Shown here one piece after another: positions 34,136-57,946 of a stretch of 64,000 nucleotides of DNA. The stretch's first letter is position 1. The number at the start of each line of letters is the position of its first letter. The notes under the pieces are model-generated. The model saw only the letters and a list, made by a program, of their open reading frames with translations. It was not told where the DNA came from and ran no database searches. Source of the stretch: Escherichia coli. GTDB taxonomy: Bacteria > Pseudomonadota > Gammaproteobacteria > Enterobacterales > Enterobacteriaceae. The DNA lies in assembly GCF_024502345.1 (NCBI RefSeq), contig NZ_JALDNN010000001.1; one strand, 5' to 3'. The translations under genes and the position numbers were made by a program.

Positions 34136-34471
34136 TTATTTTCCTCGTCATGTTGCAATGAAAATTTGCGGTGAAAAATGTTAAGGCGGCGGAGTATACC
34201 ATAAGCTTTGCTAAAAATAGCAGTGGTTGTTTTTTGAGCGTGATATCGGCAGTGCTATAAAATACGTTAATATAATGACCAATAAATATTTTTATCATGA
34301 ATGTTTTTTGCCCGTATTGTTCGGGTTAATTAATGTTACATATTCAGCGGGCTGATTTTCATTTTTGCTGAATAAAGTCAATTTTTGTCACATTTCATCG
34401 CCGGGCTTACTGTGAAACGATCCCGGAAGCCGTTGGTGACGGGCGTGACCATAACTGTGGACAATCGAATT

Positions 34472-35528
34472 GGCTTTGTTGAATAAATCAGATTTCGGGT
34501 AAGTCTCCCCCGTAGCGGGTTGTGTTTTCAGGCAATACGCACGCTTTCAGGCATACCTGCTTTCGTCATTTTGTTCAGCGCTCGTACCAGGGCCATAGCC
34601 TCTGCAACCTGACCATCGTAGTCACGCAGTGTCAGTGAACCCCCGAACAGCTGTTTTACCCGGTACATCGCCGTTTCCGCTATCGAGCGACGGTTGTAAT
34701 CTGTTGTCCATTTCCACCGCGCATTACTCCCGGTCATTCGCTGATTAGCCACTGCACGGTTACGGTCTGCATATTCACCGGGCCAGTAACCCGCACCTTT
34801 TCGGGGAGGGATAAGCGCGCTGATTTTCTTACGCCGCAGTTCATCGTGACATAGCCGGGTATCGTAAGCGCCATCGGCGGCGGCTGACCTGATTTTCCGG
34901 TGGGTTTGCCGGATTAACCCGGGGAAGGCCTCTGAGTCCGTAACGTTGTTCAGCGACAGGTCAGCGCAGATGATTTCATGTGTTTTACTGTCAACGGCGA
35001 GATGCAGCTTACGCCAGATACGGCGGCGTTCCTGGCCATGCTTTTTGACTTTCCACTCGCCTTCACCGAAGACCTTCAGCCCGGTGGAATCAATTACCAG
35101 GTGTGCGATTTCACCCCGGGTGGGCGTTTTGAAACTGACATTAACCGACTTTGCCCGCCTGCTGACACAGCTGTAATCCGGGCAGCGTAGCGGAACGTTC
35201 ATCAGAGAAAAAATGGAATCAATAAAGCCCTGCGCAGCGCGCAGGGTCAGCCTGAATACGCGTTTAATGACCAGCACAGTCGTGATGGCAAGGTCAGAAT
35301 AGCGCTGAGGTCTGCCTCGTGAAGAAGGTGTTGCTGACTCATACCAGGCCTGAATAGCTTCATCATCCAGCCAGAAAGTTATGGAGCCACGGTTGATGAG
35401 GGCTTTATTGTAGGTGGGCCAGTTGGTGATTTTGAACTTTTGCTTTGCCACGGAACGGTCTGCGTTGTCGGGAAGATACGTGATCTGATCCTTCAACTCA
35501 GCAAAAGTTCGATTTATTCAACAAAGCC
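34472..35528 (-). mobile_element. IS903-type (IS5 family) insertion sequence, complete 1057 bp, flanked by 9-bp target-site duplication AATCGAATT
   Basis: Terminal inverted repeats GGCTTTGTTGAATAAATC at both ends; identical 9-mers at 34463-34471 and 35529-35537. Confidence 0.9.
34528..35496 (-). CDS. IS903-type DDE transposase
   Basis: ORF MKDQITYLPDNADRSVAKQKFKITNWPTYNKALINRGS... inside the IS. Confidence 0.9.
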   Translation of the reverse strand: MKDQITYLPDNADRSVAKQKFKITNWPTYNKALINRGSITFWLDDEAIQAWYESATPSSRGRPQRYSDLAITTVLVIKRVFRLTLRAAQGFIDSIFSLMNVPLRCPDYSCVSRRAKSVNVSFKTPTRGEIAHLVIDSTGLKVFGEGEWKVKKHGQERRRIWRKLHLAVDSKTHEIICADLSLNNVTDSEAFPGLIRQTHRKIRSAAADGAYDTRLCHDELRRKKISALIPPRKGAGYWPGEYADRNRAVANQRMTGSNARWKWTTDYNRRSIAETAMYRVKQLFGGSLTLRDYDGQVAEAMALVRALNKMTKAGMPESVRIA

Positions 35529-35659
35529 AATCGAATTTACAAAAACGAGAGAAAAATCGAATACCCACCATTTTTAACGTTTCAAAGTTGCAATAAAAAC
35601 CGCTAATATACGAATGACTAACTATCAGTAGCGTTATCCCTATTTCTGGAGATATTCCT

Positions 35660-39117: not shown

Positions 39118-39204
39118 GCCCGGATGGTGGAATCGGTAGACACAAGGGATTTAAAATCCCTCGGCGTTCGCGCTGTGTGGGTTCAAGTCCCACTCCGGGT
39201 ACCA
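39118..39204 (+). tRNA. leuZ: tRNA-Leu (UAA anticodon), class II tRNA with long variable arm; integration site of the downstream island
   Basis: GCCCGGATGGTGGAATCGGTAGACACAAGGGATTTAAAATCCCTCGGCGTTCGCGCTGTGTGGGTTCAAGTCCCACTCCGGGTACCA. Confidence 0.9.
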
Positions 39205-39245
39205 TGGGAAACATCAGAATAATCAAAGCAATAAGCAGTGTCGTT

Positions 39246-39269
39246 AAACCACCTCCGGGTGGTTTTTTT
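39246..39269 (+). terminator. Rho-independent terminator of the glyW-cysT-leuZ operon
   Basis: AAACCACCTCCGGGTGGTTTTTTT hairpin plus T-run. Confidence 0.8.
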
Positions 39270-39445
39270 GTGCCTGAAATTCATGTCCTGTGCATATCCT
39301 GTGCTCACGGGGTGCGATGAGCTGCAATCTCCAGCCTGGCAATGACGAATCGAACGTGTCGCCTCCAGCATAGAGAACCAGGCCGCTTTGCCTGTTTTCC
39401 GGTACGCTTCCGGGAAGGGGGGCCTGCTGAGCAAGCTGTAATGCT

Positions 39446-42847: not shown

Positions 42848-43282
42848 ATGCAAACCCAATATGCCTTAAAACAGGCAGGATTAACTCTGCCTGTTACTAA
42901 AGAATTTCAGCAGCATATTACTACTCTTCTGGCAAATCAGGTTTTACAAAAAATAACTGAGGCAGTGGTTATTAATTTCCGCGATCCGGACTACAGTGCA
43001 GAATCCGGGGGCTTTCATCCCGTTGAAATACGGTTTATCCGTAAGAATAATGAATGGTATTTTGATTATGTCACAGATTTTAGTTATATGGGGCGTGTCT
43101 ACCCTGAGCTGGAAAAAGAAATTGATTTTTGCTGGTCGGGGAATTATGTCTTCCATTATCTGATTGGGGATATTTCACTGGCAGCAGAGAGGAATGAACT
43201 CTGGTCTCTGTGGGAGCGTAATTTTATGGAGTATCTCTCTATGGGGATTTACCGGGTAACGGTAACTGTGGAAAGTTGTTGA
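42848..43282 (+). CDS. Hypothetical protein
   Basis: 144-aa ORF, co-oriented. Confidence 0.45.
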   Translation: MQTQYALKQAGLTLPVTKEFQQHITTLLANQVLQKITEAVVINFRDPDYSAESGGFHPVEIRFIRKNNEWYFDYVTDFSYMGRVYPELEKEIDFCWSGNYVFHYLIGDISLAAERNELWSLWERNFMEYLSMGIYRVTVTVESC

Positions 43283-43583
43283 CCCGTTATGAACAGGAAG
43301 AAAGCGGGCGGCTTTGTAATCTACAGCATGTGGTGTGCATCACAGCATGGAGATGATGTCTCTTTTTCCTGGCTGTTCGCATAAACAAGTGCAGACACGG
43401 GGGATCTCAGATCCCTCGTGATTTTTGCCCCCTATGGTGCATTCTTCTGTAGCAGGGTGATAACGGTTAATCCATTACCCCAACGACAGTATTACACCGG
43501 TAATAAATGTTCATGAATACAGTTAGTTATGTGGGTTTTGAGGTGGGCTATGTCATCGTTGACGATAACTGAAGGTTTTACAG

Positions 43584-43811
43584 ATGTATAAAACTCGCGG
43601 TGAAAGGATCGCAGAAAGGCTGTGCTGGATATTACTTCAACTGTATACCGGTAATACGGTATCGGTTAATGATATATGTCAGCGTTTCGCGGTCAGTCGC
43701 CGAACCGGACAGCGTGATTTGTTGAGAGTTGAAACTGTAACGGAAACTATTTCACCTGGAAGGGTAAGGCTGGCAAATTTGATAAGGGAACGAGTTAGAC
43801 GAAATTTTTAA
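43584..43811 (+). pseudogene. Remnant of a WYL/BrxR-type regulator gene (N-terminal HTH only)
   Basis: 75-aa ORF resembling the N-terminal HTH of the 300-aa regulator at 44773-45675; no WYL domain follows. Confidence 0.4.
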
Positions 43812-43892
43812 TCGAATCCATATCAATTCTATAAAATATGAAACTTAACGGGAGTAAATATACACTCCCGTTATAATGCAACCTTTTTTTAA

Positions 43893-44711
43893 CTACTCAA
43901 ATGATATTAATTTAGGTGCGACAGTGTTTTTATGACATGTTAAATTCGCAAGATCAATAATATCATGAAACAATTTTATGTCGTCGTCAGTGAGCTCTAC
44001 GTCTGGATCAGCTAAATCGGCACAGGTAACATTTAACCAGTGTGTTAATGAATCAATCCTGTTTGAAGTAATATATTCAGTGTGACCAATATCCCACTTC
44101 CAGTTGATCACCCGAGCAGGTCTGAATCTCACCTCCCGAACCCCAATTGGCGTTACTGACTCTACGAGAGGGTATATCGTGTTAAGTACTTTATCATGTT
44201 CACTGTAGATATTTAAATGCCCCATTTTTGAACCGTAAGCCATTTTCATTATGTTCTCTGTATAACTTGTTATTGGGGTGGCTCCGGCCATAGAGATTGT
44301 TAAGAGAATATTATCATTTTTAATATAGGGTAATGTATTGTTTATTAATCGAGTCCCTAAAGAATGACCCATTATGATCACATTACGCTTTTCTTTAACG
44401 TATATCTCGTTTATTACGTGTGCTAATTTTTCTCTGTTATTAACTGCTGCTTTCGTTGCATTATACCAGGCCTGACGCGCTTTAAATGGAATGGAGATTG
44501 ATGACAATAAAGGAGATGTTCTCAGGGGGAAGAGAGTATATAACCCCCACTTGTTCGCTATGTCAGAACTTAATATGGATAGTAGATTTGCCGATTCCCA
44601 TTTATAGTATCTGACATCAAGGCCACACCCTGCTTTAATTCGGTTAAACCATGATATATCATTTTCGGTCAGAAACCCTGATACAACAAGAAGAACCGGG
44701 CATTTTTTCAT
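43893..44711 (-). CDS. Alpha/beta-hydrolase-fold protein with GHSLG nucleophile elbow (esterase/lipase-like), function unknown
   Basis: 272-aa ORF; GxSxG motif GHSLG; candidate Asp/His downstream; immediately downstream of the WYL regulator gene. Confidence 0.6.
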   Translation of the reverse strand: MKKCPVLLVVSGFLTENDISWFNRIKAGCGLDVRYYKWESANLLSILSSDIANKWGLYTLFPLRTSPLLSSISIPFKARQAWYNATKAAVNNREKLAHVINEIYVKEKRNVIIMGHSLGTRLINNTLPYIKNDNILLTISMAGATPITSYTENIMKMAYGSKMGHLNIYSEHDKVLNTIYPLVESVTPIGVREVRFRPARVINWKWDIGHTEYITSNRIDSLTHWLNVTCADLADPDVELTDDDIKLFHDIIDLANLTCHKNTVAPKLISFE

Positions 44712-44772
44712 GGTAACTCCATTTTTTAGCTTACAAAAATAGCACTCAATGAAAATTATATTATCCGTGTCA

Positions 44773-45675
44773 TTACGGGGCGTTACTTGGCTGGGTGTAA
44801 CGTTTCAGTGCGGATTGTATATCTTCAGCAAGTTGTTGACGGATTGAGGCCGGTTGTATTACTTCGACATCCGGTATCCAGTATTTCATTAAAGGCATTA
44901 TCTGATCTGTGTGTGTTACACGTGATATCACCAGTAAATCGCCAGACCGGGAAGTATGAATTATTTCCTGTCCTGGCAATAGATGACGGTGGGTAAACCA
45001 CGGAGCAACATGTGCGGAAACTGAAATAAGAACTTCGATAAGGTCTTCGCTATACCAGATACCATCTGTCTTTTCTATTTTTTCATTAATTTCGGGGATT
45101 ATCCTGAAAGAGATATTACTCATGCAAACGTCTTTGACAGATGAGATAACAAAGCTTTTTAATGTACTGTCATGGGCGGCAGCGAGATACCACAATCCGT
45201 TGTCATTAACCAGCCTGTATGGCTCAACAGCCCGAAACTCTTTATCTTTGTAATTAAAATTTACTTTCTTCTGTGACAGGATGGCATCGGATAATACATT
45301 CAGAATTGACATGAATGATCCGCAGTTTTCGTATGGACGTTGTTTTATCAGAAACGGGTTGTTTTTCGTGTTACCTAACAAAATACTCAGTAGTCTGTCA
45401 TCCCAGCGAGGGAACAGCCCTTCAATACCCAGGATGCGCGTGAAATGACGTAAATCAGCATTGCTGCGTTGACCGAGAACACCGTCAGACAGGCGATAGC
45501 GACCATTTTGTCGAATCAGATTAAGATAGGACAGGCGCTGAGTAAGATCACGACGGATAGTTTTTTCGCAAACGTTAAATTCCTCAGATAACTCCCGGAC
45601 GGCTAGTGACTCACCATTGTTCAGGCGAGTTAATATCAATCCGAGTCGATATCCAAGTTTATCGTGCTTACCCAT
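44773..45675 (-). CDS. HTH + WYL-domain transcriptional regulator (BrxR/CapW-like, defence-island regulator family)
   Basis: 300-aa ORF; N-terminal DeoR-like HTH ([22 protein letters not shown]), central WYL-type segment ([10 protein letters not shown]). Confidence 0.65.
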
Positions 45676-45723
45676 TCGTTTATCCGGTTAATGCCAGCGA
45701 AGAGGATATTTTCAGCAAAGTAA

Positions 45724-45836
45724 CGGACAGGATGAGTCCACTTTTACTGTGACGGAGAAAAAAATTAACTCATTAATTATCAATATATTAAAACATTGCT
45801 GGAATCATCGAATAACATGTGGACTCATCCTGTCCA
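45724..45836. promoter_or_regulatory. Perfect 17-bp inverted repeat pair upstream of the WYL regulator gene (candidate operator)
   Basis: GGACAGGATGAGTCCAC at 45724-45740 and its exact reverse complement at 45820-45836. Confidence 0.45.
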
Positions 45837-46054
45837 TGTGTATTTTTACGTTCAGGGTGATAATTATTATCCTGACCTGTACATGACATGTTTTTGCTGC
45901 ATATTTGACCATGCACTTTTGCCATCAAGTCGGAGAGGCAGGGGGGAACGTAAGATCCGAAGGTTAGAGAGGTTATCAGCAATTACAATGATGATTAATA
46001 TTTTCATAATATCGGAGAACATCATATTAGTTGAAATAACATAAAGGTGGTTCT

Positions 46055-46381
46055 ATGTATTTACATATCAGAAAGTATCAACTCGTAAATGCGAGATGGC
46101 GTGATGTCATTGATCTGACAGATTATGAAGAAACAATCAGGCAGGTTGTCGGTACATTATTTGGAAATGATTTTATTGAGGTCAGCGTTGAAACAAATTG
46201 TTTTACTCTGACAGTAAACAGTACAAGCAGTAAAATACCACACGGCATACTGGTGAATATGGGGAAAAGGCTGGCGGCTAATCTCCAGAGTATCACCTGT
46301 CATGCCATGCGGATCTATCATGTAAATGGCCATCCTGACGCGCGGCAGTTATTTCACTGTTTTGATGCCGATTGCCTGTGA
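46055..46381 (+). CDS. Hypothetical protein
   Basis: 108-aa ORF convergent with the piPolB gene; weak support. Confidence 0.3.
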   Translation: MYLHIRKYQLVNARWRDVIDLTDYEETIRQVVGTLFGNDFIEVSVETNCFTLTVNSTSSKIPHGILVNMGKRLAANLQSITCHAMRIYHVNGHPDARQLFHCFDADCL

Positions 46382-46429
46382 TTAAGCCCCCAACTTCTGT
46401 TAAAGGAGTTGGGGGAGATTTAACGGTTA

Positions 46430-49093
46430 TCAGACTGGAAGACAGAATGTCGGATATTTACGGGCTATGATATCCATCAGTGACTTCATTCGCGGTGTTA
46501 CAGAACTAAATTTCATTTGGGGTATTTTTGCTCTTACCGCATTTTTTACATCAGTCACCGTTACTGAATAGCCTTCTGACGTCAGCCATTCAGCAACCTC
46601 TTTACAGGAATAACTTTTTTTATCTTTCAGCATCAGCCCCCATTGGCACTGAGTCAGCGCCCGGAGAAATAGTCTGACTAAAATATCATCACTACGTTTG
46701 CTTCCGACTTTTAGTTTCATATCAGAAAACACCGTCCGGCAATAGAGAAAATCACACCAGTCATCCCAGTCAGCCAGGGTCTTCAGTGTATGCGTTTGCC
46801 GCCAGTCGTCGAAAAGGGAGCGCTGCTGCAGAGCCTCTTCCATATTATCCCATGGGCGGGAAAACATCAGTAAATGCCCTTCATTCATGGCGGGCTGTAC
46901 GGGCTGGCGTTTGAAATCGAATTCCAGATTAAGACGGATATCCTGTTCCCGGGATACCAGATCGCTTTCCGACAGCCACATCTCACGCGTTGATATCAAC
47001 GTACTTCGGGATAAAGTCTGACCGGGTAAACGATTAAGGTAAAGATCTACCATATAGTCGTTATAGTCACTGCGTGGAATATCGGCAGGAGGTTTGACGC
47101 CAGCCCTGGCATGAACAACAGGTTTTCCCTGAATAGCTCTATAGGTTAACTGCCCCCGGGTTTTCATGGCGATAAGCTGGCTGACTTCATGCTTACATGT
47201 CAACATTGATGAACCCGGATCAACAATATCGCACAGCGACTGGAAGCGGGAAGACAGTGGACCGCTCATGTTTATCTTGTTAAGTGGGCAATTTGTCAAA
47301 AAGCCATCGGTTGTGACGCTGACAACCGATGAATCAGAAGGCAAAGCATTCATGAGTTCCCCGGCAACGGCGCGGATAAATCCCGTTACATGCGCAGCAA
47401 AGAATGGCTGAGTAACCGATGATGGTGGGAGGGATCTGTTTAATCCACGGGCAGTATCAAAGGCGGTTTTGGCGCGAAGGCCCTGAGCAAGTTTGCCATA
47501 AAGCGAGTTGCCAATTTCTTTCCAGAATTTCTCCTCCAGAGAACCTTTAATATGGCGATTACGGTTCTCACGGACCTGTTGAACAAAGGGAAGAAACACC
47601 GATGTTGATTCGCTGTTATGTGGGGAGGTGTCACAGATCCAGGGGACGATGATCCCATTATGGATCGTCATCTCTGCCCCGAGCGACAGAGCAAGTTCGA
47701 TTTCAGGTGCCGTTGCCCATGATTCGCCACTTAATGGAAAGAATAACCCATATTGATCGGTCCGAACCGGCAGGCTGGGATAGGGAACTGATTCCGGGAA
47801 CCGAAATGTGACAAGCGCAAATCCCATTACATGCCCACAGTAATCGTCCGGATTTTTACTGAGGCGGATGTTCCCGTAATCGGGTGTGAGGATATCTAAT
47901 AGCCCGGTGGTATACGCTCCAGCCAGATCGTAGTCATACCAGTGATCAGACGGTGTAACCCCCATCATAAAACACTCATTGCGTCCGCCGTGGTAACAGT
48001 TGATCGGGAACGTTTCAAACAACTCTCTTGAAGGAACACTGGCGGGGTTTTTAATCGTCCGGAATGCCTGTTTCTCCGTGAGCCAGAGTTCACGGGTTTT
48101 AATGTGTGTCCCAAGGCAGACTTCAGGAGACATATTGTTTTCTTTAAGTGTTTTGGTGAACCGTGAAACTGCCATCGCCCCGATGGTGGCGGGGACACGA
48201 TCAATCATCAGCTCCCGGGCGCAAAAATTGCGAACCTGTAAAGCATAACGAACCGCAATCTCGGCATCCCGCAGAGCATAGGCTTCAAACCCTGCTCTGT
48301 CGCCCAGAAGATATTCACGCATATTGGTTATGGAATAAGGTGCAGGAATGGTGAGTTTGGGAAGACCCAGTAATTCACCACATTCAGCCAGACCCATACC
48401 CCCGGGAGTGATAAGCAGTGTATCGATGAAAGCTACGTTACTGCAACGCGGAGGGGAAGTTCGTTTGTCAAACATTATCTGTTCAGTCTTTACGCGACGT
48501 TCCTGCTGTTCATCAAAATCGATACCGTAACGATTTTTGAAGCTGCTGACAGTACCGCGTATTCCTTTCAGAAGAATTTTGTAGTCTGACCAGAAATTGG
48601 CAAAGGAGGCGATATCCGCACGAATGAAATGCGCATATATATTAATAATACCGGGCCATTTTGTAATCACACCCGTTTCAAGAAGCGGTGTAATCGTTTG
48701 ACAGAGAAATTCCTTAAAAGACAGCCGGGATTTTTTCTGTGAGTCAGGTGGATAGATAATGTTCGATATACCTGTATTATCGGGTAAGATAACATAACTC
48801 TGATATGACAGAATATCATTCTGTCGTGTTTCAGGGTTGAAAACATATTCGGTATCAAAACCGATATGGAGTGTCAGGTCACTTGAAATAACAGATACTT
48901 TTTTTGATGCAGGTGGTATCACAGGATAATCATCAAGCGTTTTAGGTCTTTTACGATTGAGCGCTGGCTCTGAAGTCACGGACTGATACCCCGAGGCGGC
49001 AGCGAGGATGTCCTGCAAATTATTGCTCATAGTTAACTCCGAAAAAATGCCGGGAGCTGTGTCCCGGCATAAAGAATCAGGATTTAATAACAT
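46430..49093 (-). CDS. Family B DNA polymerase of the primer-independent (piPolB) type, pipolin hallmark gene
   Basis: 887-aa ORF; Exo I FDTE; motif B KEIGNSLYGK; motif C-like VTTDGF; KTRG in place of the canonical KxY motif (IAMKTRGQLTY). Confidence 0.8.
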   Translation of the reverse strand: MLLNPDSLCRDTAPGIFSELTMSNNLQDILAAASGYQSVTSEPALNRKRPKTLDDYPVIPPASKKVSVISSDLTLHIGFDTEYVFNPETRQNDILSYQSYVILPDNTGISNIIYPPDSQKKSRLSFKEFLCQTITPLLETGVITKWPGIINIYAHFIRADIASFANFWSDYKILLKGIRGTVSSFKNRYGIDFDEQQERRVKTEQIMFDKRTSPPRCSNVAFIDTLLITPGGMGLAECGELLGLPKLTIPAPYSITNMREYLLGDRAGFEAYALRDAEIAVRYALQVRNFCARELMIDRVPATIGAMAVSRFTKTLKENNMSPEVCLGTHIKTRELWLTEKQAFRTIKNPASVPSRELFETFPINCYHGGRNECFMMGVTPSDHWYDYDLAGAYTTGLLDILTPDYGNIRLSKNPDDYCGHVMGFALVTFRFPESVPYPSLPVRTDQYGLFFPLSGESWATAPEIELALSLGAEMTIHNGIIVPWICDTSPHNSESTSVFLPFVQQVRENRNRHIKGSLEEKFWKEIGNSLYGKLAQGLRAKTAFDTARGLNRSLPPSSVTQPFFAAHVTGFIRAVAGELMNALPSDSSVVSVTTDGFLTNCPLNKINMSGPLSSRFQSLCDIVDPGSSMLTCKHEVSQLIAMKTRGQLTYRAIQGKPVVHARAGVKPPADIPRSDYNDYMVDLYLNRLPGQTLSRSTLISTREMWLSESDLVSREQDIRLNLEFDFKRQPVQPAMNEGHLLMFSRPWDNMEEALQQRSLFDDWRQTHTLKTLADWDDWCDFLYCRTVFSDMKLKVGSKRSDDILVRLFLRALTQCQWGLMLKDKKSYSCKEVAEWLTSEGYSVTVTDVKNAVRAKIPQMKFSSVTPRMKSLMDIIARKYPTFCLPV

Positions 49094-49715
49094 TTACTAC
49101 AGATTTGAAAATATCGGTTTTGTGTGATTCATCATCTACATGGATAAAGGAAACGAGTTTCCTGCCTGCTTTAATCAGGATACCGCGTTGCGTCTTTTCC
49201 ACAGACGGGGTAACGTGTGCAGATAACAGACAATGTTCATGTAAATGAAGAAACTTTTTTGAGGCGTAGCCGCCATGTAATCGGGCTTGAATGTCAAGAT
49301 ACATATCATCAAGAGAACCGGGTTCTCCTGATTCACTCAATACCGGATAACCCTTCTTATCAAAGAGGTTAAGGATAGATTTACTATCATGTTCGAACAG
49401 GGTAACACCGTAAATGTATTTCATTCGAAAGGTGAGGGAATCGGTGGTGTAGACCTCCTCCTGACGATTGAAATTTTTGAGACGCCTGGCTAATTCATTA
49501 AAAACAGCACGAGCAGTAGCCGTGTCCTGCAGGGTGTAGGTATAAAGTACGAAGCCATCTGTGCCGATGAGCTTTACTAAGTTGTCCATAATCGTGATAG
49601 CGAGAACTAATGCAAAGGACAGATATTTTTCATCGTTGTCTACAGCTGTGTTTGCTGCTTCAGGAAGAATGTTCAGTGCATTATTAGCATTATTTGCTGT
49701 GTTCTTAGTAACCAT
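49077..49715 (-). CDS. Hypothetical protein, overlapping and probably translationally coupled to piPolB
   Basis: 212-aa ORF; stop overlaps the piPolB start; start overlaps the alpA-like stop. Confidence 0.5.
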   Translation of the reverse strand: MVTKNTANNANNALNILPEAANTAVDNDEKYLSFALVLAITIMDNLVKLIGTDGFVLYTYTLQDTATARAVFNELARRLKNFNRQEEVYTTDSLTFRMKYIYGVTLFEHDSKSILNLFDKKGYPVLSESGEPGSLDDMYLDIQARLHGGYASKKFLHLHEHCLLSAHVTPSVEKTQRGILIKAGRKLVSFIHVDDESHKTDIFKSVVNVIKS

Positions 49716-49905
49716 TTATATCACCTTTAAGTTTGTTTTGACGATGTGCATTTTCCCACTCAACAATATCATCAAGAGAGAATCGTATAGCCCGCCCAAT
49801 TCTGATGAAGGGCGGGAGTTTTCCTGGGTTGCGCGATATATCTGACGCAACCGTGGATGCGGAAAGATTAAATCTTTCTGCAAACTGCTTAATGGTTAAA
49901 TACAT
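49705..49905 (-). CDS. AlpA-family HTH protein (excisionase / transcriptional regulator)
   Basis: 66-aa ORF, MYLTIKQFAERFNLSASTV...; typical partner of integrases in islands. Confidence 0.65.
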   Translation of the reverse strand: MYLTIKQFAERFNLSASTVASDISRNPGKLPPFIRIGRAIRFSLDDIVEWENAHRQNKLKGDINGY

Positions 49906-50055
49906 AAACCTCCGGTTTTAGAGAAGAAGAAACCACGCGGATTTAATATCAATCCACATTCTTTGATGACTTAATGCAGGGCCCTGCAGAAGCATGCAAT
50001 GACAATACCGTCCTTAAACGAGTGTTGCATCAATCACGAATCACAGATCATAGGT

Positions 50056-51186
50056 TCATTTTTTCGTGTCATAACTTTCTATGACCTGAGAAACCACTGC
50101 GTGCGATGTCGCTGCATTGTGAAAAGCGTAGCGACGGGTCGCCGTGAGTGAATGGTGATTTAGCAGATGGGAAGCGATTGCAATATCCCCGGTCGCCTGT
50201 AGTACCCGGGTGGCAAAGGTACGGCGCAGGTCATGCATCCGCAGGTTATCAATGTTGGCATCCCGACAAATACGGGCAAAGGTTGCACGCGGATATGCCA
50301 GAGGGCGGGCATTGTCGGTTAGTTGTGGAAAAATGTAAGTTTTGCTGAGCATCAGGTCTTGCTGGCACTGGACAACTGCAATGGCTGGAGGTGCAAGTGG
50401 GCAGGTGAAAGGGTGTCCGGACTTTGTATCAGGCAGTATGAGTTGATGCATATCCGGGTGCCAGTACTCCCATTTCAGGGTACATACCTCACCAATACGC
50501 ATCCCCGTATAAAGAGCAAGCAATATAGAATCAGCTGCCGGTGTTTGCAGCGCTGTTGCCGCGTCAATAAAGCGCGGGATTTCTGTCGCTGATAGTGTGC
50601 GATAGCGAATGTTATTTTCTTTCAGATAGCGGACATGTGACATCGGGGAATGTGTGATCCATCCAGCACGTACTGCCAGAGAGCATATTTTGGACAATAT
50701 TGCGAGGATACGGTTTACTGTTGACGGACGTAATTTTTCCCGTAAGCCAGCAGCATATTGTTCTAGTTCCCCTGCCGTGATGTCGCGAAGTTGCCGCTTG
50801 CCCCAGAACGGGCGAACGTAGAGGTTGAGTTTTGACAACTCTGACTGAGGACTCTTTTTATACAACTGCAAATCCGGTAGCCACAGGTCATTGATGGCCT
50901 GTTCCACAGTGAATCGACGGGACTGAACCGCAAGACGATTTTTATCAGCAAGCAGTTTCATCACATGCTGACGGGCATCCTCAACGCAGAGCTGAGGGAA
51001 CTGACCCAGGGTTTCATATATACGCTGATTGTTTATAGTGGCACGAAAGGCCAGCGTGATCCGATTGGGATACACCAGAGCACGCAGGTTTTGGCAGTGA
51101 ATATCACGGTATTCCTGACAACCCGTGAGGGGATGTGGAAGTTGGTGAAGTGATTTGTTGCTGAAACGCAGATCCAGAATAGGCAT
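50056..51186 (-). CDS. Second tyrosine recombinase (XerC/D-like integrase)
   Basis: C-terminal catalytic motifs HDLRRTFATR, LLNHH, TATRRYAF. Confidence 0.8.
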   Translation of the reverse strand: MPILDLRFSNKSLHQLPHPLTGCQEYRDIHCQNLRALVYPNRITLAFRATINNQRIYETLGQFPQLCVEDARQHVMKLLADKNRLAVQSRRFTVEQAINDLWLPDLQLYKKSPQSELSKLNLYVRPFWGKRQLRDITAGELEQYAAGLREKLRPSTVNRILAILSKICSLAVRAGWITHSPMSHVRYLKENNIRYRTLSATEIPRFIDAATALQTPAADSILLALYTGMRIGEVCTLKWEYWHPDMHQLILPDTKSGHPFTCPLAPPAIAVVQCQQDLMLSKTYIFPQLTDNARPLAYPRATFARICRDANIDNLRMHDLRRTFATRVLQATGDIAIASHLLNHHSLTATRRYAFHNAATSHAVVSQVIESYDTKK

Positions 51187-51329
51187 CGTATTTCTCCTGT
51201 AAATGACACTGGAAAAATACGATGTGAGGTTATAGTCTGCCAGTTACAGCTTTCACAGTTCATCAGGTGAAAAAACGCAGATTCGGATATAATGGCAACA
51301 CAATTCCATGTCGCCATTATATTAAGAAA

Positions 51330-52460
51330 CTACAGTTTCATGATCTTGTTCGCTATTTTTTCGAAGTAAACCTCATTCTTAAGAAGAGTGATATTGTTTG
51401 TTTGAACACCCAGACCACTGGAGGTTGACTGGAAGTTGAGTGAACCACTTATCACTGTGGACTTTCCTGATAAAAATGAAATCAACTCCTTGGAAGATGG
51501 TGCCCACTCAGGGTTTAAGAGTAATGCAATATAGATATATGTCTTACGAAGCAATTGTTCTATATCTTTTTTATGCCCTGTAGTGTTTTGCTTACCTTTA
51601 ATGCAAATAGATTTGATTATGAACTCATCAGGGCTGGTTAAAGGCGTTTTAAACTCACTCAGTGATCCATCGTTATGAATGACTTCATAAGGCAGCATAG
51701 ATAAAATGATCAATGCAATCATTTTAGGATGATAAAGGTAGTTATCACGAATGATTTTTCCTGCCTTCATTGTATTGAGCGTTGTTTGAATAAATACAAA
51801 AAGATATTCAGAGCAAAAGTAACAAAACACAAGCCAGGATAGGTCAATGGATGGAATGTTAATATCCTTAGGTAGTTTGTTTAGCCAGTATTCAGACTTC
51901 AAAAAGGTCCTGATTTCAACAGTATATTCATGCATTTTTGCGCTGAAATCAAGCATTGCTACTTGACCTGATTGTTCCGTAACTGTGTGGTCTATAAATG
52001 TTAGTGTATTGCACATTTTATCCAGCGTGTTTTGAAAACAAGAAAGGAGTTCGGCATTATTATTACCATTAACCGCAGATGAAAGTTCAGTTTTAATAAA
52101 TGCATCCAGTAGCATACAGATTTCTTTCGGAATGACATTTTTACGGGATTGCTGTGAATAGAAATGTACTGCCAGTAAATTAAAGGCAGTGCACTCCTTT
52201 TTTAACCATTGTTCGAGCACTGGGACGTGCTGAAAAAAATTGATATGCTTAGCAGTAGATGCTGATGGAGATAGTACATGAAGAATATCTACAGCAGGCT
52301 TCATTTGCAATATTTGATCGGATTCGGTAGTCGTCATTAGTTCCAGTAATTGCTGTTCAGAAAATAGTTTAGACAGGTGATCAATGTCTTTTTGGTATTG
52401 ATTAAGTTTTGTTAAATTCCCCGGTATACGGGTTACATTGTTTTTCATTTTCTCGAACAT
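51330..52460 (-). CDS. Hypothetical protein (AT-rich gene, no recognisable motifs)
   Basis: 376-aa ORF, Lys/Asn/Ile-rich; long uninterrupted frame in a strongly AT-rich stretch. Confidence 0.5.
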   Translation of the reverse strand: MFEKMKNNVTRIPGNLTKLNQYQKDIDHLSKLFSEQQLLELMTTTESDQILQMKPAVDILHVLSPSASTAKHINFFQHVPVLEQWLKKECTAFNLLAVHFYSQQSRKNVIPKEICMLLDAFIKTELSSAVNGNNNAELLSCFQNTLDKMCNTLTFIDHTVTEQSGQVAMLDFSAKMHEYTVEIRTFLKSEYWLNKLPKDINIPSIDLSWLVFCYFCSEYLFVFIQTTLNTMKAGKIIRDNYLYHPKMIALIILSMLPYEVIHNDGSLSEFKTPLTSPDEFIIKSICIKGKQNTTGHKKDIEQLLRKTYIYIALLLNPEWAPSSKELISFLSGKSTVISGSLNFQSTSSGLGVQTNNITLLKNEVYFEKIANKIMKL

Positions 52461-52966
52461 AATTTTATCCTCGTTTGAATTATTACACTGATTTAAAAAG
52501 TAGCATGTCGTGTTAGCGAGGTAATCCTAAAACGTGAATGGCAGCAGGGGCAAGCTTGAATCTGCGTAAGGATATGGCTTGAATTTAATGGTGTAATCAG
52601 TGAGTTAGAGGCTTATAGCCATTTAAATACAATAAGTTATGATAATATATGGCGGGTGTAAATCGGTTAGTTTTTATGGTTAAAATATGAGCATTGTGAG
52701 ATTTGAGATATGATGGTTTTTAAATTACATACAAGTTACCCCTGATGATCAGTATTAATACCAGAATGATACATGCGAGCAGCACCCAATCCTGTACTAT
52801 TTATGATGGCTATACAAGGCTGAAACTTTGAGTCGTATGTTGCCAGGAGGATTAATGTCCACAAGGCCCAGATAGAATGATTTCTCAGATATTAAAGTTG
52901 AAACTTATTAACTATGTGAGAGGCTGATATTTATTCAGTCTCTCATTTGTTTTTATCGTTTTAAAG

Positions 52967-54202
52967 TTAAAAGGAAATAAATAATGCCTTCCGCCGATGA
53001 ATCAGTGTACTGATTTCTCGAAAATCAGCCTCAATACTACCAACATCACCAAAGACTTCACCACTAATCTCTCTTCGATTTTTCATGAAATTGGTGCTTA
53101 ATAAGCTTTCTTTTTTTAGTGTCACTAATTTTGGTTTTATATCGTTATAGAAATGCTTACGGCTTACCCTGATGCTATGAATCGAGTAGTAAACTGTTTT
53201 ATACATCAAAAATATAAGTAACTGGCCGAGAAGATATTCTTTTTCAATGTATTTATATTGAGAGGATTTTTCGCGTTTCGCCAGGTAGAAAACATGAGGT
53301 GCGATGATGGTGGGGATGAAATCCAGTGCTGGAGAGGTTTTGGTTTTTTCTGTTTCTCTTCCGGATTGAAGATGTTGAAGTACAGAGTATACAATGCTTA
53401 AAATTATGGCGTTACTTATATTATTAATTGCAGTTGGGTAAATATGCAGATTGCTTATCAATTCTGAAAGGCAAAGTAAAACACCAGTGATGTTGGGTTT
53501 TCTGCCGGAGATTGTGGTGCTGTTGAAAATGTGACGATTCTTACGACTTATATTGACAAGTTTATGAGTGCAGAACTCTATATGTTCGACGATTTTATCT
53601 TGACTATTTTTAATGTATTTTGAAATGTTAGTGATCCGGCCATTCAACGTTAGTTCATCAAGCAATATATCATTTTTAATATTGCGAATTTCATCGCAAT
53701 GTTCACATTGAGAAACTATCTCATGTAATACATAACTCGACGTATTGCGGGGTGACGCTGATATGTAATCTAAAATAGAAGGCTCGATTTTGATTTTTTG
53801 TTTGTATTTTTTAATGCACTGTTTGATTGTTTTTTGTAGAGTATTTGAGATGTGTTTTTTATATTCTTTTAGAAAATCTTGCTCTAAAAAGAGTGAGGAG
53901 AAGATCAACTGCTGGCGAGATAATTTAATCTCAGGCTTGATCAATTTAATCCGAAAAACTCTTCCCTCCAACTCATAGCTGAACATGGAAGATAAGTCAT
54001 AGTGGGGTGATAAATGTTCGAGTAACGACATTCGTGTATTCATTAGCCGCTTGAATTTATGGTCAGCATACATAAGTGTTTTTTTTATTTGCTCATCATA
54101 AAGTGGGCCGATAGCGCAGTTGGCAATACTCATTCTATCCGGAGACCTCCAGTCAGCAGGGGAATCACATTGACGGTCATCATTACTATCAAAGGGCATC
54201 AA
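52967..54202 (-). CDS. Hypothetical protein (AT-rich gene, no recognisable motifs)
   Basis: 411-aa ORF, similar composition to the preceding gene; divergent from hsdM. Confidence 0.5.
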   Translation of the reverse strand: MMPFDSNDDRQCDSPADWRSPDRMSIANCAIGPLYDEQIKKTLMYADHKFKRLMNTRMSLLEHLSPHYDLSSMFSYELEGRVFRIKLIKPEIKLSRQQLIFSSLFLEQDFLKEYKKHISNTLQKTIKQCIKKYKQKIKIEPSILDYISASPRNTSSYVLHEIVSQCEHCDEIRNIKNDILLDELTLNGRITNISKYIKNSQDKIVEHIEFCTHKLVNISRKNRHIFNSTTISGRKPNITGVLLCLSELISNLHIYPTAINNISNAIILSIVYSVLQHLQSGRETEKTKTSPALDFIPTIIAPHVFYLAKREKSSQYKYIEKEYLLGQLLIFLMYKTVYYSIHSIRVSRKHFYNDIKPKLVTLKKESLLSTNFMKNRREISGEVFGDVGSIEADFREISTLIHRRKALFISF

Positions 54203-54505
54203 CGTTGCCGATTATGGATCATGTCAGCTCCACACACCAGAACGGGTGATATATGGATCATCATTACCCCAACGGCAGTTTTACACCATGGCTAATATGG
54301 ATGCTATCTTACTAAGATAATTGGTTTTTAGCGAGTGACGAGCCCGGTTGTGTCAGTCTGTCTCATGTCGATATTACGGGGATGATGCAAACCTGAATGC
54401 TGCGATATTGGCGTGTCAGGGGAGGCATCTTACGGTATCATTTACCGCAATTTTTAAGATGCAAAGCCCTGCATCGCTAGCTTTTTCTTCAGACCAGGAT
54501 GATTC

Positions 54506-56029
54506 ATGAACGACAAAATCAGTCAGGACACGATCAACAAAGCCCTGTGGGCCGCGTGTGATACGTTCCGTGGCACCATCAGTGCTGATACCTATAAAGA
54601 CTTTATCCTTACCATGCTATTCCTTAAGTACATTTCGGATGTCTGGCAGGATCACTACGACGAATATAAAGTGCAATATGGTGATGAGCCGGAACTGATT
54701 GAAGCGATGATGGCGAACGAGCGCTTCGTGTTGCCGAAAAGCGCCAGTTTCTATGCGTTGTACGAGCGACGTCATGAGCCGGGCAACGGTGAGCGTATCG
54801 ATCAGGCGCTGCATGCGATTGAAGAAGCCAACGGCACCAAACTGAAAGATGCCGGGAAAAGTGTCTTCCAGGATATTTCGTTTAACACTGACCGTCTGGG
54901 CGAAGAAAAACAGAAGAACACCATCCTGCGTCAGTTGCTGGAAGACTTTGCCGGTGAAGATCTTAACCTGAAGCCAAGCCGTGTCGGTACGCTGGACGTT
55001 ATCGGTAATGCTTACGAATATCTGATCAAAAACTTTGCTGCCAGCGGTGGGCAGAAAGCCGGGGAATTCTATACCCCACCGGAAGTTTCGGATCTCATCG
55101 CTGAACTGCTTGATCCTCAACCCGGTGATACAATCTGCGACCCGGCCTGTGGTTCCGGTTCGTTGCTAATGAAGTGCGGGCGTAAAATTGTCTCAGGACA
55201 TGATAGCCGCAACTATGCGTTGTTCGGTCAGGAAGCGATTGGCTCCACGTGGTCGCTGGCGAAAATGAACATGTTCCTGCACGGCGAAGATAACCACAAA
55301 ATCGAGTGGGGCGATACCATTCGTAACCCGAAGTTGTTGGATAAAAACGGCGACCTGATGCTGTTTGATATCGTGACCGCAAACCCACCGTTCAGCCTGG
55401 ATAAGTGGGGCCATGACGAGGCCGAGAATGATAAGTTTGGGCGTTTCCGTCGCGGTGTACCGCCGAAGACTAAAGGGGATTACGCCTTTATCTCGCATAT
55501 GATCGAAACCCTGAAACCGGGAACGGGTCGTATGGGCGTAGTGGTGCCGCACGGTGTGCTGTTCCGTGGCTCCAGCGAAGGCAAAATTCGTCAGAAGCTG
55601 ATTGATGAAAACCTACTCGATGCGGTGATTGGCCTGCCTGAAAAACTGTTCTACGGTACGGGTATTCCTGCTGCAATTCTGATTTTTAAAAAGCAGAAAG
55701 TGGATGACAAGGTGCTGTTTATCGACGCCAGCCGTGAATTTAAGGCAGGTAAAAACCAGAACCAGCTCAGCGCAGAAAACATCGAGAAAATCGTCAAGAC
55801 CTACCGTGATGGCGATAGCGTCGAGAAATATGCCTACCTTGCCAGCCTGAAGGAGATTCAGGACAACGATTACAACCTCAATATTCCGCGCTATGTCGAT
55901 ACCTTTGAAGAAGAAGAAGATATCGATTTACTTGCCGTTCGTGCTGAGCGGGAGGAATTGAAAGCGGAACTGGCGAAATTGGAAACGCAGATGGCGGGTT
56001 ATCTGGAGGAGCTGGGTTATGGTGCCTAA
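54506..56029 (+). CDS. hsdM: Type I restriction-modification system methyltransferase subunit HsdM
   Basis: 507-aa ORF; SAM-binding motif DPACGSGSLL and catalytic NPPF (TANPPFSLDKW). Confidence 0.9.
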   Translation: MNDKISQDTINKALWAACDTFRGTISADTYKDFILTMLFLKYISDVWQDHYDEYKVQYGDEPELIEAMMANERFVLPKSASFYALYERRHEPGNGERIDQALHAIEEANGTKLKDAGKSVFQDISFNTDRLGEEKQKNTILRQLLEDFAGEDLNLKPSRVGTLDVIGNAYEYLIKNFAASGGQKAGEFYTPPEVSDLIAELLDPQPGDTICDPACGSGSLLMKCGRKIVSGHDSRNYALFGQEAIGSTWSLAKMNMFLHGEDNHKIEWGDTIRNPKLLDKNGDLMLFDIVTANPPFSLDKWGHDEAENDKFGRFRRGVPPKTKGDYAFISHMIETLKPGTGRMGVVVPHGVLFRGSSEGKIRQKLIDENLLDAVIGLPEKLFYGTGIPAAILIFKKQKVDDKVLFIDASREFKAGKNQNQLSAENIEKIVKTYRDGDSVEKYAYLASLKEIQDNDYNLNIPRYVDTFEEEEDIDLLAVRAEREELKAELAKLETQMAGYLEELGYGA

Positions 56030-57266: not shown

Positions 57267-57946
57267 AACTGACGAAAAGCGGTCCACTGACTGACCGGGA
57301 AATCGACTGGCTGGAAGAAATATTAATGAAGTATGGAATGGATGATTCTGTACTCTGTTTCTCTGAGCTGGATGGATTGCTGACGGCGATTTTATCAGGT
57401 CCAAATATGGTTTCACCCAATATCTGGCTGAGTGCTATTTGGGGAGGAGGCGATTATCATCCGAAATGGTCATCTGAGAGAGAGATGGAGCGTTTTGTCA
57501 GTCTGTGTTTTCAGCATATGAACGATATCGCTGGTTGCCTTTATGACGCCCCTGAACTGTTTGAGCCGATTTTCAATGAGCGTGAGGTAAAGGGGGAAAA
57601 ATATACCATTGTGGAAGAGTGGTGTTTTGGTTATATGAAAGGAAAGTCACTGGATGACTGGTCTGGTCTTCCCGGTGAGTTACGGCCTTCTCTGGAAGTG
57701 ATCGCTCTTCATGGCGTGGAGAAGAATTTTCCTGTACTTGAGAAAATGACCGGAGAGCAGTTTGAGAAAAGTATTTCCCTTATTCAGCCTGCTGCACTGG
57801 CACTTTATCAGTACTGGTTGTCAGTGAGAATGTCAGAGGCATCATCCCGGCCTGTTCCAGTGAAGGGGGCAGAAAACATGCCCGGGCGAAATGACCCGTG
57901 TCCGTGTGGCAGCGGTAAAAAATTTAAGAAGTGCTGTCTGCATTGA
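57263..57946 (+). CDS. YecA-like (UPF0149) protein with C-terminal SEC-C zinc motif, embedded in the Type I R-M operon
   Basis: 227-aa ORF; C-terminal GRNDPCPCGSGKKFKKCCLH; start overlaps the hsdS stop (ATGA). Confidence 0.8.
   Translation: MKLTKSGPLTDREIDWLEEILMKYGMDDSVLCFSELDGLLTAILSGPNMVSPNIWLSAIWGGGDYHPKWSSEREMERFVSLCFQHMNDIAGCLYDAPELFEPIFNEREVKGEKYTIVEEWCFGYMKGKSLDDWSGLPGELRPSLEVIALHGVEKNFPVLEKMTGEQFEKSISLIQPAALALYQYWLSVRMSEASSRPVPVKGAENMPGRNDPCPCGSGKKFKKCCLH

What the first reader, a model, noticed from the sequence alone, without database searches (positions are those of the whole stretch)
43456..43500. Imperfect repeat, about 45 bp, shared by two module junctions (copy A)
The segment GGTGATAACGGTTAATCCATTACCCCAACGACAGTATTACACC (43456-43500) has a near-copy at 54242-54288 (GGTGATATATGGATCATCATTACCCCAACGGCAGTTTTACACC), with a 26-bp core differing at two positions. 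Copy A lies just upstream of the truncated regulator remnant. Such shared junction sequences could be recombination sites for cargo exchange between elements, or a common promoter/operator.
Basis: seen in the sequence. Interest (0 to 1): 0.55.

Follow-up and report, generated by a model that had tools for sequence, protein, structure and literature searches.

The report
Conserved regulatory box in a pipolin
A 24-26 bp DNA box occurs twice in this E. coli pipolin, a mobile defence island that encodes its own DNA polymerase, and it is most likely a shared promoter/operator element rather than a recombination site for swapping cargo.

Summary
The repeat is real. Units 43455-43505 and 54243-54297 align with score 53 against 19±2.3 for shuffles. 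The 26-nt cores (43473-43498, 54262-54287) match at 24 of 26 positions.

The window holds an E. coli pipolin inserted at tRNA-Leu. Copy A lies after the DUF2787 terminator, 86 nt upstream of a 75-aa HTH gene. That gene is conserved under purifying selection (dN/dS 0.05), so it is not a remnant. Copy B lies between a leftward gene string (orf411, orf376, IntP2, Xis, piPolB) and the rightward hsdM operon.

The core TTACCCCAACGRCNGTWTTACACC recurs at both positions in pipolins of several enterobacterial genera. It is the only invariant block in otherwise diverged hsdM upstream regions. Its 3' end reads TTTACA, a 5/6 match to the sigma-70 -35 hexamer, facing the downstream genes.

The evidence is against an att site:
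- No A×B recombination product occurs in 5,426 E. coli genomes.
- The two copies differ in the central positions.
- A distant pipolin that has IntP2 lacks copy B.
- Cargo transfer to plasmids is bounded by IS1.

Best reading: a shared promoter/operator box (confidence 0.55). The protein that binds it is unknown.

The parts
43455..43505 (+). Copy A of the repeat unit: left sub-box GGGTGATAA, the core, and a short right extension
   Evidence: Local alignment; sequence
43473..43498 (+). Core of copy A: CATTACCCCAACGACAGTATTACACC
   Evidence: It is conserved in all A-type loci, including ones retrieved independently of the motif
54243..54297 (+). Copy B of the repeat unit
54262..54287 (+). Core of copy B: CATTACCCCAACGGCAGTTTTACACC. 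Its 3' part, TTTACA (54280-54285), is a -35-like hexamer
43396..43420 (+). Intrinsic-terminator hairpin of the DUF2787 gene, just upstream of copy A; invariant across lineages
43584..43811 (+). 75-aa stand-alone DeoR-type HTH gene ('HTH75'), 86 nt downstream of core A. It is a paralogue of the N-terminal HTH of the neighbouring WYL regulator
44773..45675 (-). HTH-WYL-WCX regulator, a pipolin core gene. Its own upstream region carries a different inverted repeat
45853..45873 (+). Partial third copy of the left sub-box only (CAGGGTGATAATTATTATCCT), lying inside a palindrome at 45852-45875
46430..49093 (-). Primer-independent family-B DNA polymerase (piPolB), the hallmark gene of pipolins
   Evidence: PMC11551731
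49705..51186 (-). Xis/AlpA-type HTH_17 gene (49705-49905) and the IntP2-type tyrosine recombinase gene (50056-51186)
51330..54199 (-). Orphan genes orf376 (51330-52460; not a recombinase) and orf411 (52967-54199). They head the leftward gene string, and the ATG of orf411 lies 63 nt from core B
54506..56029 (+). hsdM, the first gene of the type I R-M cargo operon, 218 nt downstream of core B
39118..39204 (+). tRNA-Leu(UAA), the integration site of the pipolin

Best explanation
The repeat is a conserved cis-regulatory box of Enterobacterales pipolins. It is a protein-binding promoter/operator element used at two control points of the element.

Copy A sits just after the DUF2787 terminator and heads the transcription unit that begins with the small HTH gene. 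Copy B sits in the divergent intergenic region between two units. One is the leftward gene string, orf380 or orf411 followed by IntP2, Xis and piPolB. The other is the rightward hsdM-hsdS-yecA-like-hsdR defence operon.

The right end of the core supplies a near-consensus -35 hexamer (TTTACA) for rightward transcription. In several variants the left end supplies the TG of an extended -10 (TGnTATACT) for leftward transcription. The invariant 17 bp in between, made of direct half-sites TTACCCC and TTACACC around a variable centre, is the likely binding site of one regulator. That regulator would then couple expression of the element's regulator gene, its mobility and replication genes, and its first defence operon.

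Shown here: the repeat, its conservation, its positions and orientation, and the lack of recombination at it. Inferred: promoter activity, protein binding, and the identity of the binding protein. HTH75 is the leading candidate but is not required for the box to be kept.
For: 1. Conservation. The core is the only long invariant block (24 nt) in an alignment of five classes of hsdM upstream region, where both flanks have diverged beyond easy alignment. Three of those loci were retrieved through the HTH protein, not through the motif. A pipolin whose piPolB is only 50% identical keeps copy A at 23/24.
2. Pairing. Both copies are present, 9.8-10.8 kb apart and in direct orientation, in E. coli, Citrobacter, Enterobacter and Intestinirhabdus. 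They are also present in all 3 complete elements found independently of the motif.
3. Variable positions. Only core positions 14, 16 and 19 vary (R, N, W), which looks like an uncontacted centre between two contacted halves.
4. Orientation. The box is always on the same strand as the gene downstream: HTH75 at 86-100 nt and hsdM at about 220 nt.
5. Promoter features. A PWM scan puts a -35-like TTTACA at the same core position in seven of the eight classes tested; E. coli copy A has the weaker variant ATTACA and did not score. Candidate -10 hexamers follow after 16-19 bp.
6. Breakpoints. Rearrangements near copy B leave the core attached to hsdM: IS3 at -100, IS1 at -35 in more than 340 plasmids, the Atlantibacter deletion at -34, and an IS-internal fusion at -1. 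The one insertion that separates them, ISKpn26 at +25, accompanies a truncated hsdM.
7. Leftward gene spacing. The ATG of the leftward gene lies 60-64 nt from the core in classes B, D, E and G, although the intervening sequences are unrelated.
8. A candidate regulator. The HTH75 gene next to copy A is under strong purifying selection, with dN/dS 0.05.
Against: There are no transcription start data.

The -10 candidates are weak and their spacing differs: 16-17 bp in A types and 19 bp in B-E types. Class G (L072) has no convincing rightward -10. The tool's stricter promoter scan reports nothing at either copy. It does find a separate promoter-like site proximal to hsdM at 54413-54441.

The binding protein is unidentified. 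One pipolin (L069) keeps both copies but lacks HTH75 and WYL. The WYL gene has a different conserved inverted repeat in its own upstream region.

A distant pipolin (L027) has copy A but no copy B upstream of its diverged hsdM, so dual control is not universal.

Much of the sequence set was retrieved with the core as the search pattern. Only the independently retrieved loci count as evidence for conservation.
Confidence: 0.55

Rival explanations
1. The two copies are attL/attR-type sites of a nested integrative element of about 10.8 kb (HTH75 through orf411). The IntP2 recombinase and Xis would excise or exchange this element.
For: The repeats are direct and flank exactly the segment that carries IntP2, Xis and piPolB. 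The pair recurs 9.8-10.8 kb apart in several genera. Homology between variants breaks near the left edge of the core.
Against: No genome among 5,426 complete E. coli genomes joins the left flank of A to the right flank of B. The single close hit, strain I4, is an ordinary deletion (43615 to 54143) that keeps both copies. A 10,796-bp metagenome contig is linear and is not a circle junction. Copies A and B differ at core positions 14 and 19, in the central part where a crossover overlap would have to be identical. The core has direct half-sites, not the inverted ones expected of recombinase core sites. L027 has IntP2 and Xis but no copy B. Published work finds piPolB, WYL and DUF2787 associated with IntSXT even where IntP2 is absent (PMC11551731).
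Confidence: 0.07
2. The box has no biochemical function of its own. It is a passively shared patch, such as a relic of a duplication, that matters only as an anchor for homologous recombination between diverged pipolins and so creates the module junctions.
For: Mosaics exist. L009 and L058 carry an E. coli-type patch between the terminator and the core inside an otherwise A'-type sequence. Near-identical hsdM upstream regions are combined with unrelated left flanks in classes B, D, F and in classes C, E.
Against: A neutral relic would decay along with its flanks. Instead the core stays 24/24 where the flanks are barely alignable, and it stays 23/24 in a lineage whose piPolB is 50% identical. 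Twenty-four base pairs is short for efficient RecA-dependent exchange, a point that rests on established knowledge. Crossovers at the only conserved patch are an expected by-product of conservation, not its cause.
Confidence: 0.1
3. The box is a DNA-processing site other than an att site. Examples are a replication origin or initiation site used with piPolB, or an oriT-like site that lets helper plasmids mobilise the element.
For: The box is restricted to pipolins. It has an iteron-like pair of direct 7-bp repeats, TTACCCC and TTACACC, 17 bp apart. No conjugation genes are annotated in the part of the island examined, and no replication origin has been identified for pipolins in the papers read here.
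Against: The single-strand folding propensity is not significant, with z-scores of -1.2 to +0.7. No relaxase or initiator gene was identified in the core. Copy B travels with hsdM onto plasmids and stays intact in remnants that lack piPolB altogether. The constant orientation towards downstream genes is not explained by this reading.
Confidence: 0.1
4. The box acts at the RNA level, as a conserved leader, sRNA or riboswitch-like element transcribed in both contexts.
For: Both copies lie upstream of genes on the same strand and could be part of 5' leaders.
Against: No Rfam family matches the region 43000-55000 below E = 0.4. No stable or conserved fold was found. The sequences between the core and the start codons are not homologous between the two contexts.
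Confidence: 0.04

Closest known systems
Shared operator/promoter boxes of mobile-element master regulators, such as repressor operators repeated at several promoters of prophages and integrative islands
   Same: A short conserved box is repeated in direct orientation at two intergenic control regions of one element. It lies next to a small HTH gene and in a divergent promoter region upstream of the integrase, excisionase and replication genes.
   Different: No binding protein or transcription start is known. The box is asymmetric, with direct half-sites plus an optional inverted left sub-box, rather than being a simple palindrome. One copy also heads a cargo defence operon.
BrxR/CapW-type WYL regulators that control defence islands (Picton et al. 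2022, as cited in PMC11551731)
   Same: An HTH-WYL-WCX regulator is encoded in the same element next to defence genes, and a conserved site lies upstream of a defence operon.
   Different: The WYL gene's own upstream region carries a different conserved inverted repeat (GGACAGGATGAGTCCAC), not this box. The gene next to copy A is a WYL-less 75-aa HTH paralogue. One pipolin keeps the box without either protein.
Pipolin terminal att-like direct repeats (Flament-Simon et al. 2020; ExplorePipolin)
   Same: They are direct repeats inside or around an E. coli pipolin that carries tyrosine recombinases.
   Different: The terminal repeats overlap the 3' end of tRNA-Leu and delimit the whole element. 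This box is internal, is unrelated in sequence to the tRNA region, and shows no sign of recombination.
Phage P2-type att core (about 27 bp of identity between attP and attB; from my own knowledge)
   Same: The length is similar (24-26 bp), and the element encodes an IntP2-family integrase with an excisionase.
   Different: The two copies differ in the central positions, there are no inverted core-type sites, no empty site or junction was found, and the second copy is absent from a related element that has the integrase.

Membership tests
Sigma-70 promoter with adjacent or overlapping operator | -35 and -10 hexamers at 16-19 bp spacing on the strand of the downstream gene | tested here: inconclusive
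   TTTACA (5/6 of the -35 consensus) lies at a fixed core position in seven of eight classes tested; E. coli copy A has ATTACA and did not score. The -10 candidates are weak and variable, and none is convincing in class G. The stricter consensus scan finds nothing at either copy.
Sigma-70 promoter with adjacent or overlapping operator | Intergenic location upstream of genes, with constant orientation | tested here: met
   Copy A lies 86-100 nt upstream of HTH75. Copy B lies about 220 nt upstream of hsdM and 60-90 nt upstream of the divergent leftward gene in every locus examined.
Sigma-70 promoter with adjacent or overlapping operator | Sequence constraint greater than in the flanks (phylogenetic footprint) | tested here: met
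   There are 24 invariant columns in an otherwise poorly conserved five-class alignment that includes loci retrieved independently of the motif. Copy A is 23/24 in L027.
Sigma-70 promoter with adjacent or overlapping operator | Mapped transcription start and demonstrated regulator binding | not testable with these tools
   This needs 5'-RACE or dRNA-seq, EMSA or footprinting.
Tyrosine-recombinase attL/attR pair | Direct repeats flanking a segment that encodes the recombinase | tested here: met
   Copies A and B flank the segment 43499-54261, which contains IntP2 and Xis.
Tyrosine-recombinase attL/attR pair | Identical crossover (overlap) sequence in the two copies, flanked by inverted core-type sites | tested here: not met
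   The copies differ at central positions 14 and 19. The half-sites TTACCCC and TTACACC are direct, not inverted.
Tyrosine-recombinase attL/attR pair | Empty sites or excision junctions present in the population | tested here: not met
   A chimeric empty-site query found 0 contiguous matches in 5,426 E. coli genomes and 72,556 plasmids. The only near hit is a non-specific deletion.
Tyrosine-recombinase attL/attR pair | Both sites present wherever the recombinase module is present | tested here: not met
   L027 has IntP2 and Xis with copy A but no copy B.
Pipolin terminal att direct repeats | Repeat overlaps the 3' end of the target tRNA-Leu and bounds the element | tested here: not met
   The box lies 4.2 kb and 15 kb inside the element. 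The box half-sites do not occur in the stretch just downstream of tRNA-Leu (39205-39445).
BrxR/CapW-type WYL regulator operator | Site lies in the regulator's own promoter region, and the regulator has HTH-WYL-WCX architecture | tested here: not met
   The architecture criterion is met for the 300-aa protein. Its upstream region, however, carries a different conserved inverted repeat and no core. The box persists in L069, which has no WYL gene.
Known structured RNA families (Rfam 15) | Match to a covariance model | tested here: not met
   There is no relevant match in 43000-55000 at E ≤ 1.
Integron attC-like cassette junction | Imperfect palindrome that folds as a single-strand hairpin, with an integron integrase nearby | tested here: not met
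   Folding z-scores are -1.2 to +0.7. No integron integrase is present.

The most novel reading that the evidence does not exclude
The box is the operator of a pipolin-specific master switch. One element-encoded factor, most plausibly the WYL-less 75-aa HTH protein, binds both copies. It thereby couples its own expression, the divergent orf380-IntP2-Xis-piPolB mobility and replication operon, and the first defence (type I R-M) operon. Defence cargo placed next to the box would then come under the element's control, and would lose that control once moved to plasmids.
Probability: 0.25. Interest if true: 0.55.

Novelty: new member of a known kind. Interest (0 to 1): 0.36.

Why it matters
Pipolins are a recently recognised class of defence islands, and nothing has been published in the searched library about how their genes are controlled. 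This box is sharply conserved and specific to pipolins. It sits at the small HTH gene and at the boundary between the core and the cargo. That gives a concrete handle for experiments: a 26-bp probe to fish for the regulator, two candidate promoters to map, and a test of whether expression of mobility, replication and defence genes is coupled. The box also offers a simple sequence marker for the core/cargo boundary in Enterobacterales pipolins. Finally, the analysis corrects a likely mis-annotation, because the 75-aa HTH ORF is a real gene and not a remnant.

Tried and rejected
- **Nested IntP2 element (attL/attR).** Rejected on five grounds: no empty site was found, there is no evidence of a circle, the two copies differ in the centre, the half-sites are direct, and L027 lacks copy B.
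- **A second recombinase next to copy B.** Rejected. orf376 has no integrase signature and no similarity to IntP2.
- **A vestigial third copy upstream of orf376 (52461-52980).** Not significant, with z between 1 and 2.9.
- **WYL regulator as the binder.** Unlikely, because its own upstream region carries a different conserved inverted repeat and L069 lacks WYL.
- **P. aeruginosa AlpA/ABE antitermination analogy.** Pae AlpA is a larger, unrelated protein whose binding element is GGGACG, so this was kept only as a lead.
- **Coding potential of the core.** Copy A has a stop codon two codons upstream and no start codon, so this was rejected from the sequence itself.
- **RNA family or structure.** No Rfam match and no significant fold.
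- **Searches that yielded little.**
  - The piPolB word-index search returned only near-identical proteins.
  - The distant pipolins L028-L032 lack the DUF2787/HTH architecture and the box.
  - L063 is a chance hit in an unrelated contig.
  - Class F (L068) is a fusion to the interior of an IS.
  - A look-up with a 146-aa ORF found nothing on record.

Full report
**Observation**

Both copies exist within 1-3 nt of the stated coordinates. The repeat finder lists the 26-nt cores at 43473-43498 and 54262-54287, with 24 of 26 positions identical.

A gapped local alignment extends the similarity to 43455-43505 against 54243-54297. Its score is 53, against 19.1 ± 2.3 (maximum 27) for 300 shuffles. 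The degenerate core pattern has only these two matches in the window, even allowing 3 mismatches, with 0.00 expected by chance.

**Context**

The window is E. coli chromosome. Downstream of glyW-cysT-leuZ (tRNA-Leu at 39118-39204) lies an island whose annotation in near-identical genomes reads as follows:
- an integrase, two orphan genes and a DUF2787 gene
- a small HTH gene, a DUF726 gene and an HTH-WYL regulator
- a family-B DNA polymerase
- an excisionase-like HTH_17 gene and a second tyrosine recombinase
- further orphan genes
- a type I R-M operon (hsdM, hsdS, a YecA/YgfB-like gene, hsdR, an M48 peptidase)

This is the published architecture of Enterobacterales pipolins: a small genetic core (IntSXT, DUF2787, WYL, piPolB, IntP2 with an excisionase) plus a defence cargo module (PMC11551731). 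Neither that paper nor PMC7385651 mentions an internal repeat in the passages I searched.

Copy A lies just after the intrinsic terminator of the DUF2787 gene (43396-43420) and 86 nt upstream of the ORF at 43584-43811. Copy B lies between orf411, a leftward gene whose ATG is at 54199, and hsdM, a rightward gene whose ATG is at 54506.

**The 'remnant' is a gene**

- The 75-aa ORF recurs as a 75-78-aa ORF in Citrobacter, Enterobacter, Buttiauxella and Intestinirhabdus. It also recurs in a pipolin whose piPolB is only 50% identical.
- It is on record in 228 blocks of the gene collection, with weak HTH_DeoR Pfam hits.
- It aligns to the N-terminal HTH of the neighbouring WYL regulator (27% identity, pairwise E = 7e-5).
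- dN/dS is 0.05 where dS is measurable.

It is therefore a conserved stand-alone HTH protein.

**Distribution of the box**

In 5,426 complete E. coli genomes, 317 carry copy A, mostly together with copy B. A further 149 carry only a B-type copy.

A scan of 100,044 species-representative genomes with a 20-base core pattern found 14 stretches. All were in enterobacterial pipolin contexts, apart from one apparent plasmid contaminant. The hits usually came as pairs 9.8-10.8 kb apart on one contig. A metagenome scan added 36 more stretches.

These sets were retrieved with the core itself, so they cannot prove that the core is conserved. Independent retrievals do:
- Three complete pipolins fetched through the HTH protein all carry both copies, with 0-2 mismatches in 26.
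- A pipolin fetched through a 50%-identical piPolB carries copy A at 23/24.

I aligned five classes of the region between the leftward gene and hsdM. The core is the only long invariant block (24 columns) apart from the ribosome-binding-site and start region of hsdM. In class G both flanks are barely alignable.

Across all copies only positions 14, 16 and 19 vary, giving the consensus CATTACCCCAACG-R-C-N-GT-W-TTACACC. The core contains two direct 7-bp half-sites, TTACCCC and TTACACC, 17 bp apart. In copies A, B and D a left sub-box (GGGTGAT) forms an inverted repeat with ATTACCC.

**Is it a recombination site?**

I tested this reading in six ways.

1. A chimeric empty-site query, made of the left flank of A, the core and the right flank of B, found no contiguous match in the E. 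coli genomes or in 72,556 plasmids. The one apparent hit, strain I4, is a deletion from inside the HTH gene (43615) to 54143 that retains both copies.
2. A 10,796-bp metagenome contig of suggestive length is linear, ending in the flanks rather than at a circle junction.
3. Breakpoints near copy B lie beside the core, not in it:
   - IS3 at -100
   - IS1 at -35 in the E. coli plasmid and more than 340 Klebsiella plasmids, where IS1 copies bound the hsd module on both sides
   - a deletion in Atlantibacter from inside the 246-aa ORF to -34
   - ISKpn26 at +25
   - a fusion to the interior of an IS at -1
4. The two copies differ at central positions, and the half-sites are direct rather than inverted. 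That does not fit a tyrosine-recombinase core.
5. L027 has IntP2 and Xis but no copy B.
6. The ORF next to IntP2 that I first took for a second recombinase is an orphan with no integrase signature.

Mosaic sequences do exist. L009 and L058 carry an E. coli-type patch bounded by the terminator and the core. Near-identical hsdM upstream regions are also combined with unrelated left flanks. This is what homologous exchange at the only conserved patch would produce. It does not require a dedicated site.

**Evidence for a promoter/operator**

The box always faces the downstream genes. A simple PWM scan places a -35-like TTTACA (5/6 of consensus) at the same core position in seven of the eight classes tested; E. 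coli copy A reads ATTACA there. Candidate -10 hexamers follow: GATATT, GACATT or TTTAAT after 16-17 bp in A types, and TATCTT, TATCAT or TATCCT after 19 bp in classes B to E.

On the other strand, the left edge of the core provides the TG of TGnTATACT in classes E and G. That is an extended -10 pointing at the leftward gene. The ATG of that gene lies 60-64 nt from the core in four classes, even though the intervening sequences are unrelated (read directly from the sequences).

Rearrangements that removed the pipolin core genes nevertheless left the box attached to hsdM. The one insertion that separates them accompanies a truncated hsdM. This fits selection to keep the box with the operon.

The weaknesses are real:
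- There are no transcription start data.
- The -10 candidates are poor.
- Class G lacks a rightward -10.
- The stricter consensus scan reports nothing at the box. It does find a separate promoter-like site proximal to hsdM at 54413-54441.

**Who binds it?**

This is unknown.
- **WYL regulator.** It is an unlikely binder. Its own upstream region carries a different conserved element, perfect 17-bp inverted arms at 45725-45741 and 45819-45835 that recur in other lineages.
- **HTH75.** It is the nearest candidate. However, L069 keeps both copies while lacking HTH75 and WYL.
- **Other candidates.** Xis (HTH_17), an orphan core protein or a host factor all remain possible.

No RNA family matches the region, and neither strand folds better than shuffled controls.

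**Verdict**

The repeat is a genuine, pipolin-specific, strongly constrained cis element that has not been described in the literature I could search. The most probable function is a shared promoter/operator box at two control points of the element (confidence about 0.55). The recombination-site reading is not supported.

In kind it is ordinary, a regulatory box in a mobile element. Its value lies in opening pipolin regulation to experiment.

Noticed in passing
window 45725-45741 and 45819-45835: Perfect 17-bp inverted repeat arms (GGACAGGATGAGTCCAC / GTGGACTCATCCTGTCC), 77 nt apart, in the upstream region of the HTH-WYL gene. They are conserved with few changes in three other pipolin lineages. 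They are probably the WYL regulator's own operator pair, and they are distinct from the box.
   Followed up: partly
window 45852-45875: Palindrome TCAGGGTGATAATTATTATCCTGA upstream of orf108. It shares the 11-mer CAGGGTGATAA with the left sub-box of copy A. It is not conserved in the A'-type lineages examined.
   Followed up: partly
window 54458-54485: Hairpin GATGCAAAGCCCTGCATC followed by a T-run, immediately upstream of the hsdM ribosome-binding site. In a divergent variant (L072) the stem is kept while the loop changes. It could be an attenuator or a stabilising 5' structure.
   Followed up: no
window 43396-43420: The DUF2787 terminator hairpin, which contains the palindrome GGGATCTCAGATCCC, is invariant at the sequence level across all lineages, including the distant L027. 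That is more conservation than a terminator needs.
   Followed up: no
window 57263-57946: A YecA/YgfB (UPF0149)-family gene sits inside the hsd operon between hsdS and hsdR. The chromosomal yecA gene flanks the pipolin integration site. In P. aeruginosa, YgfB counteracts the antiterminator AlpA (PMC9998450). This is a lead only.
   Followed up: no
window 19486-19593: A perfect tandem duplication of a 54-bp unit (two copies), outside the island.
   Followed up: no
window 34469-34504 and 35496-35531: 36-nt inverted repeats (81% complementary), 991 nt apart. The geometry resembles the ends of a small IS element.
   Followed up: no
L019 (E. coli ET450, NZ_CP100958.1 2009000-2058000): Two pipolins sit in tandem at the same tRNA-Leu, each with its own IntSXT, DUF2787 and box copies. 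PMC11551731 reports no such reinfection in Enterobacterales.
   Followed up: partly
L020 (E. coli I4) 7235-7290; window equivalents 43615 and 54143: A natural 10.5-kb deletion removes the stretch from HTH75 to orf411, including piPolB and IntP2. It leaves the two box copies 260 bp apart, upstream of hsdM.
   Followed up: yes
window 51330-52460: orf376 is intact here but split into two ORFs in the closest complete genome (CFSAN061762). The family is extremely divergent between pipolin lineages (36-43% amino-acid identity), while the adjacent IntP2 is 72-79% identical and HsdM is 91-99% identical.
   Followed up: partly
L004 (plasmid pEC28-AU-EG1) and more than 340 Klebsiella plasmids: The hsdM-S-yecA-like-R-M48 module, together with 290 bp of upstream sequence that includes the box, sits next to traI-traX-finO on F-type plasmids. 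In the plasmid examined (pEC28-AU-EG1) IS1 copies bound it on both sides.
   Followed up: partly
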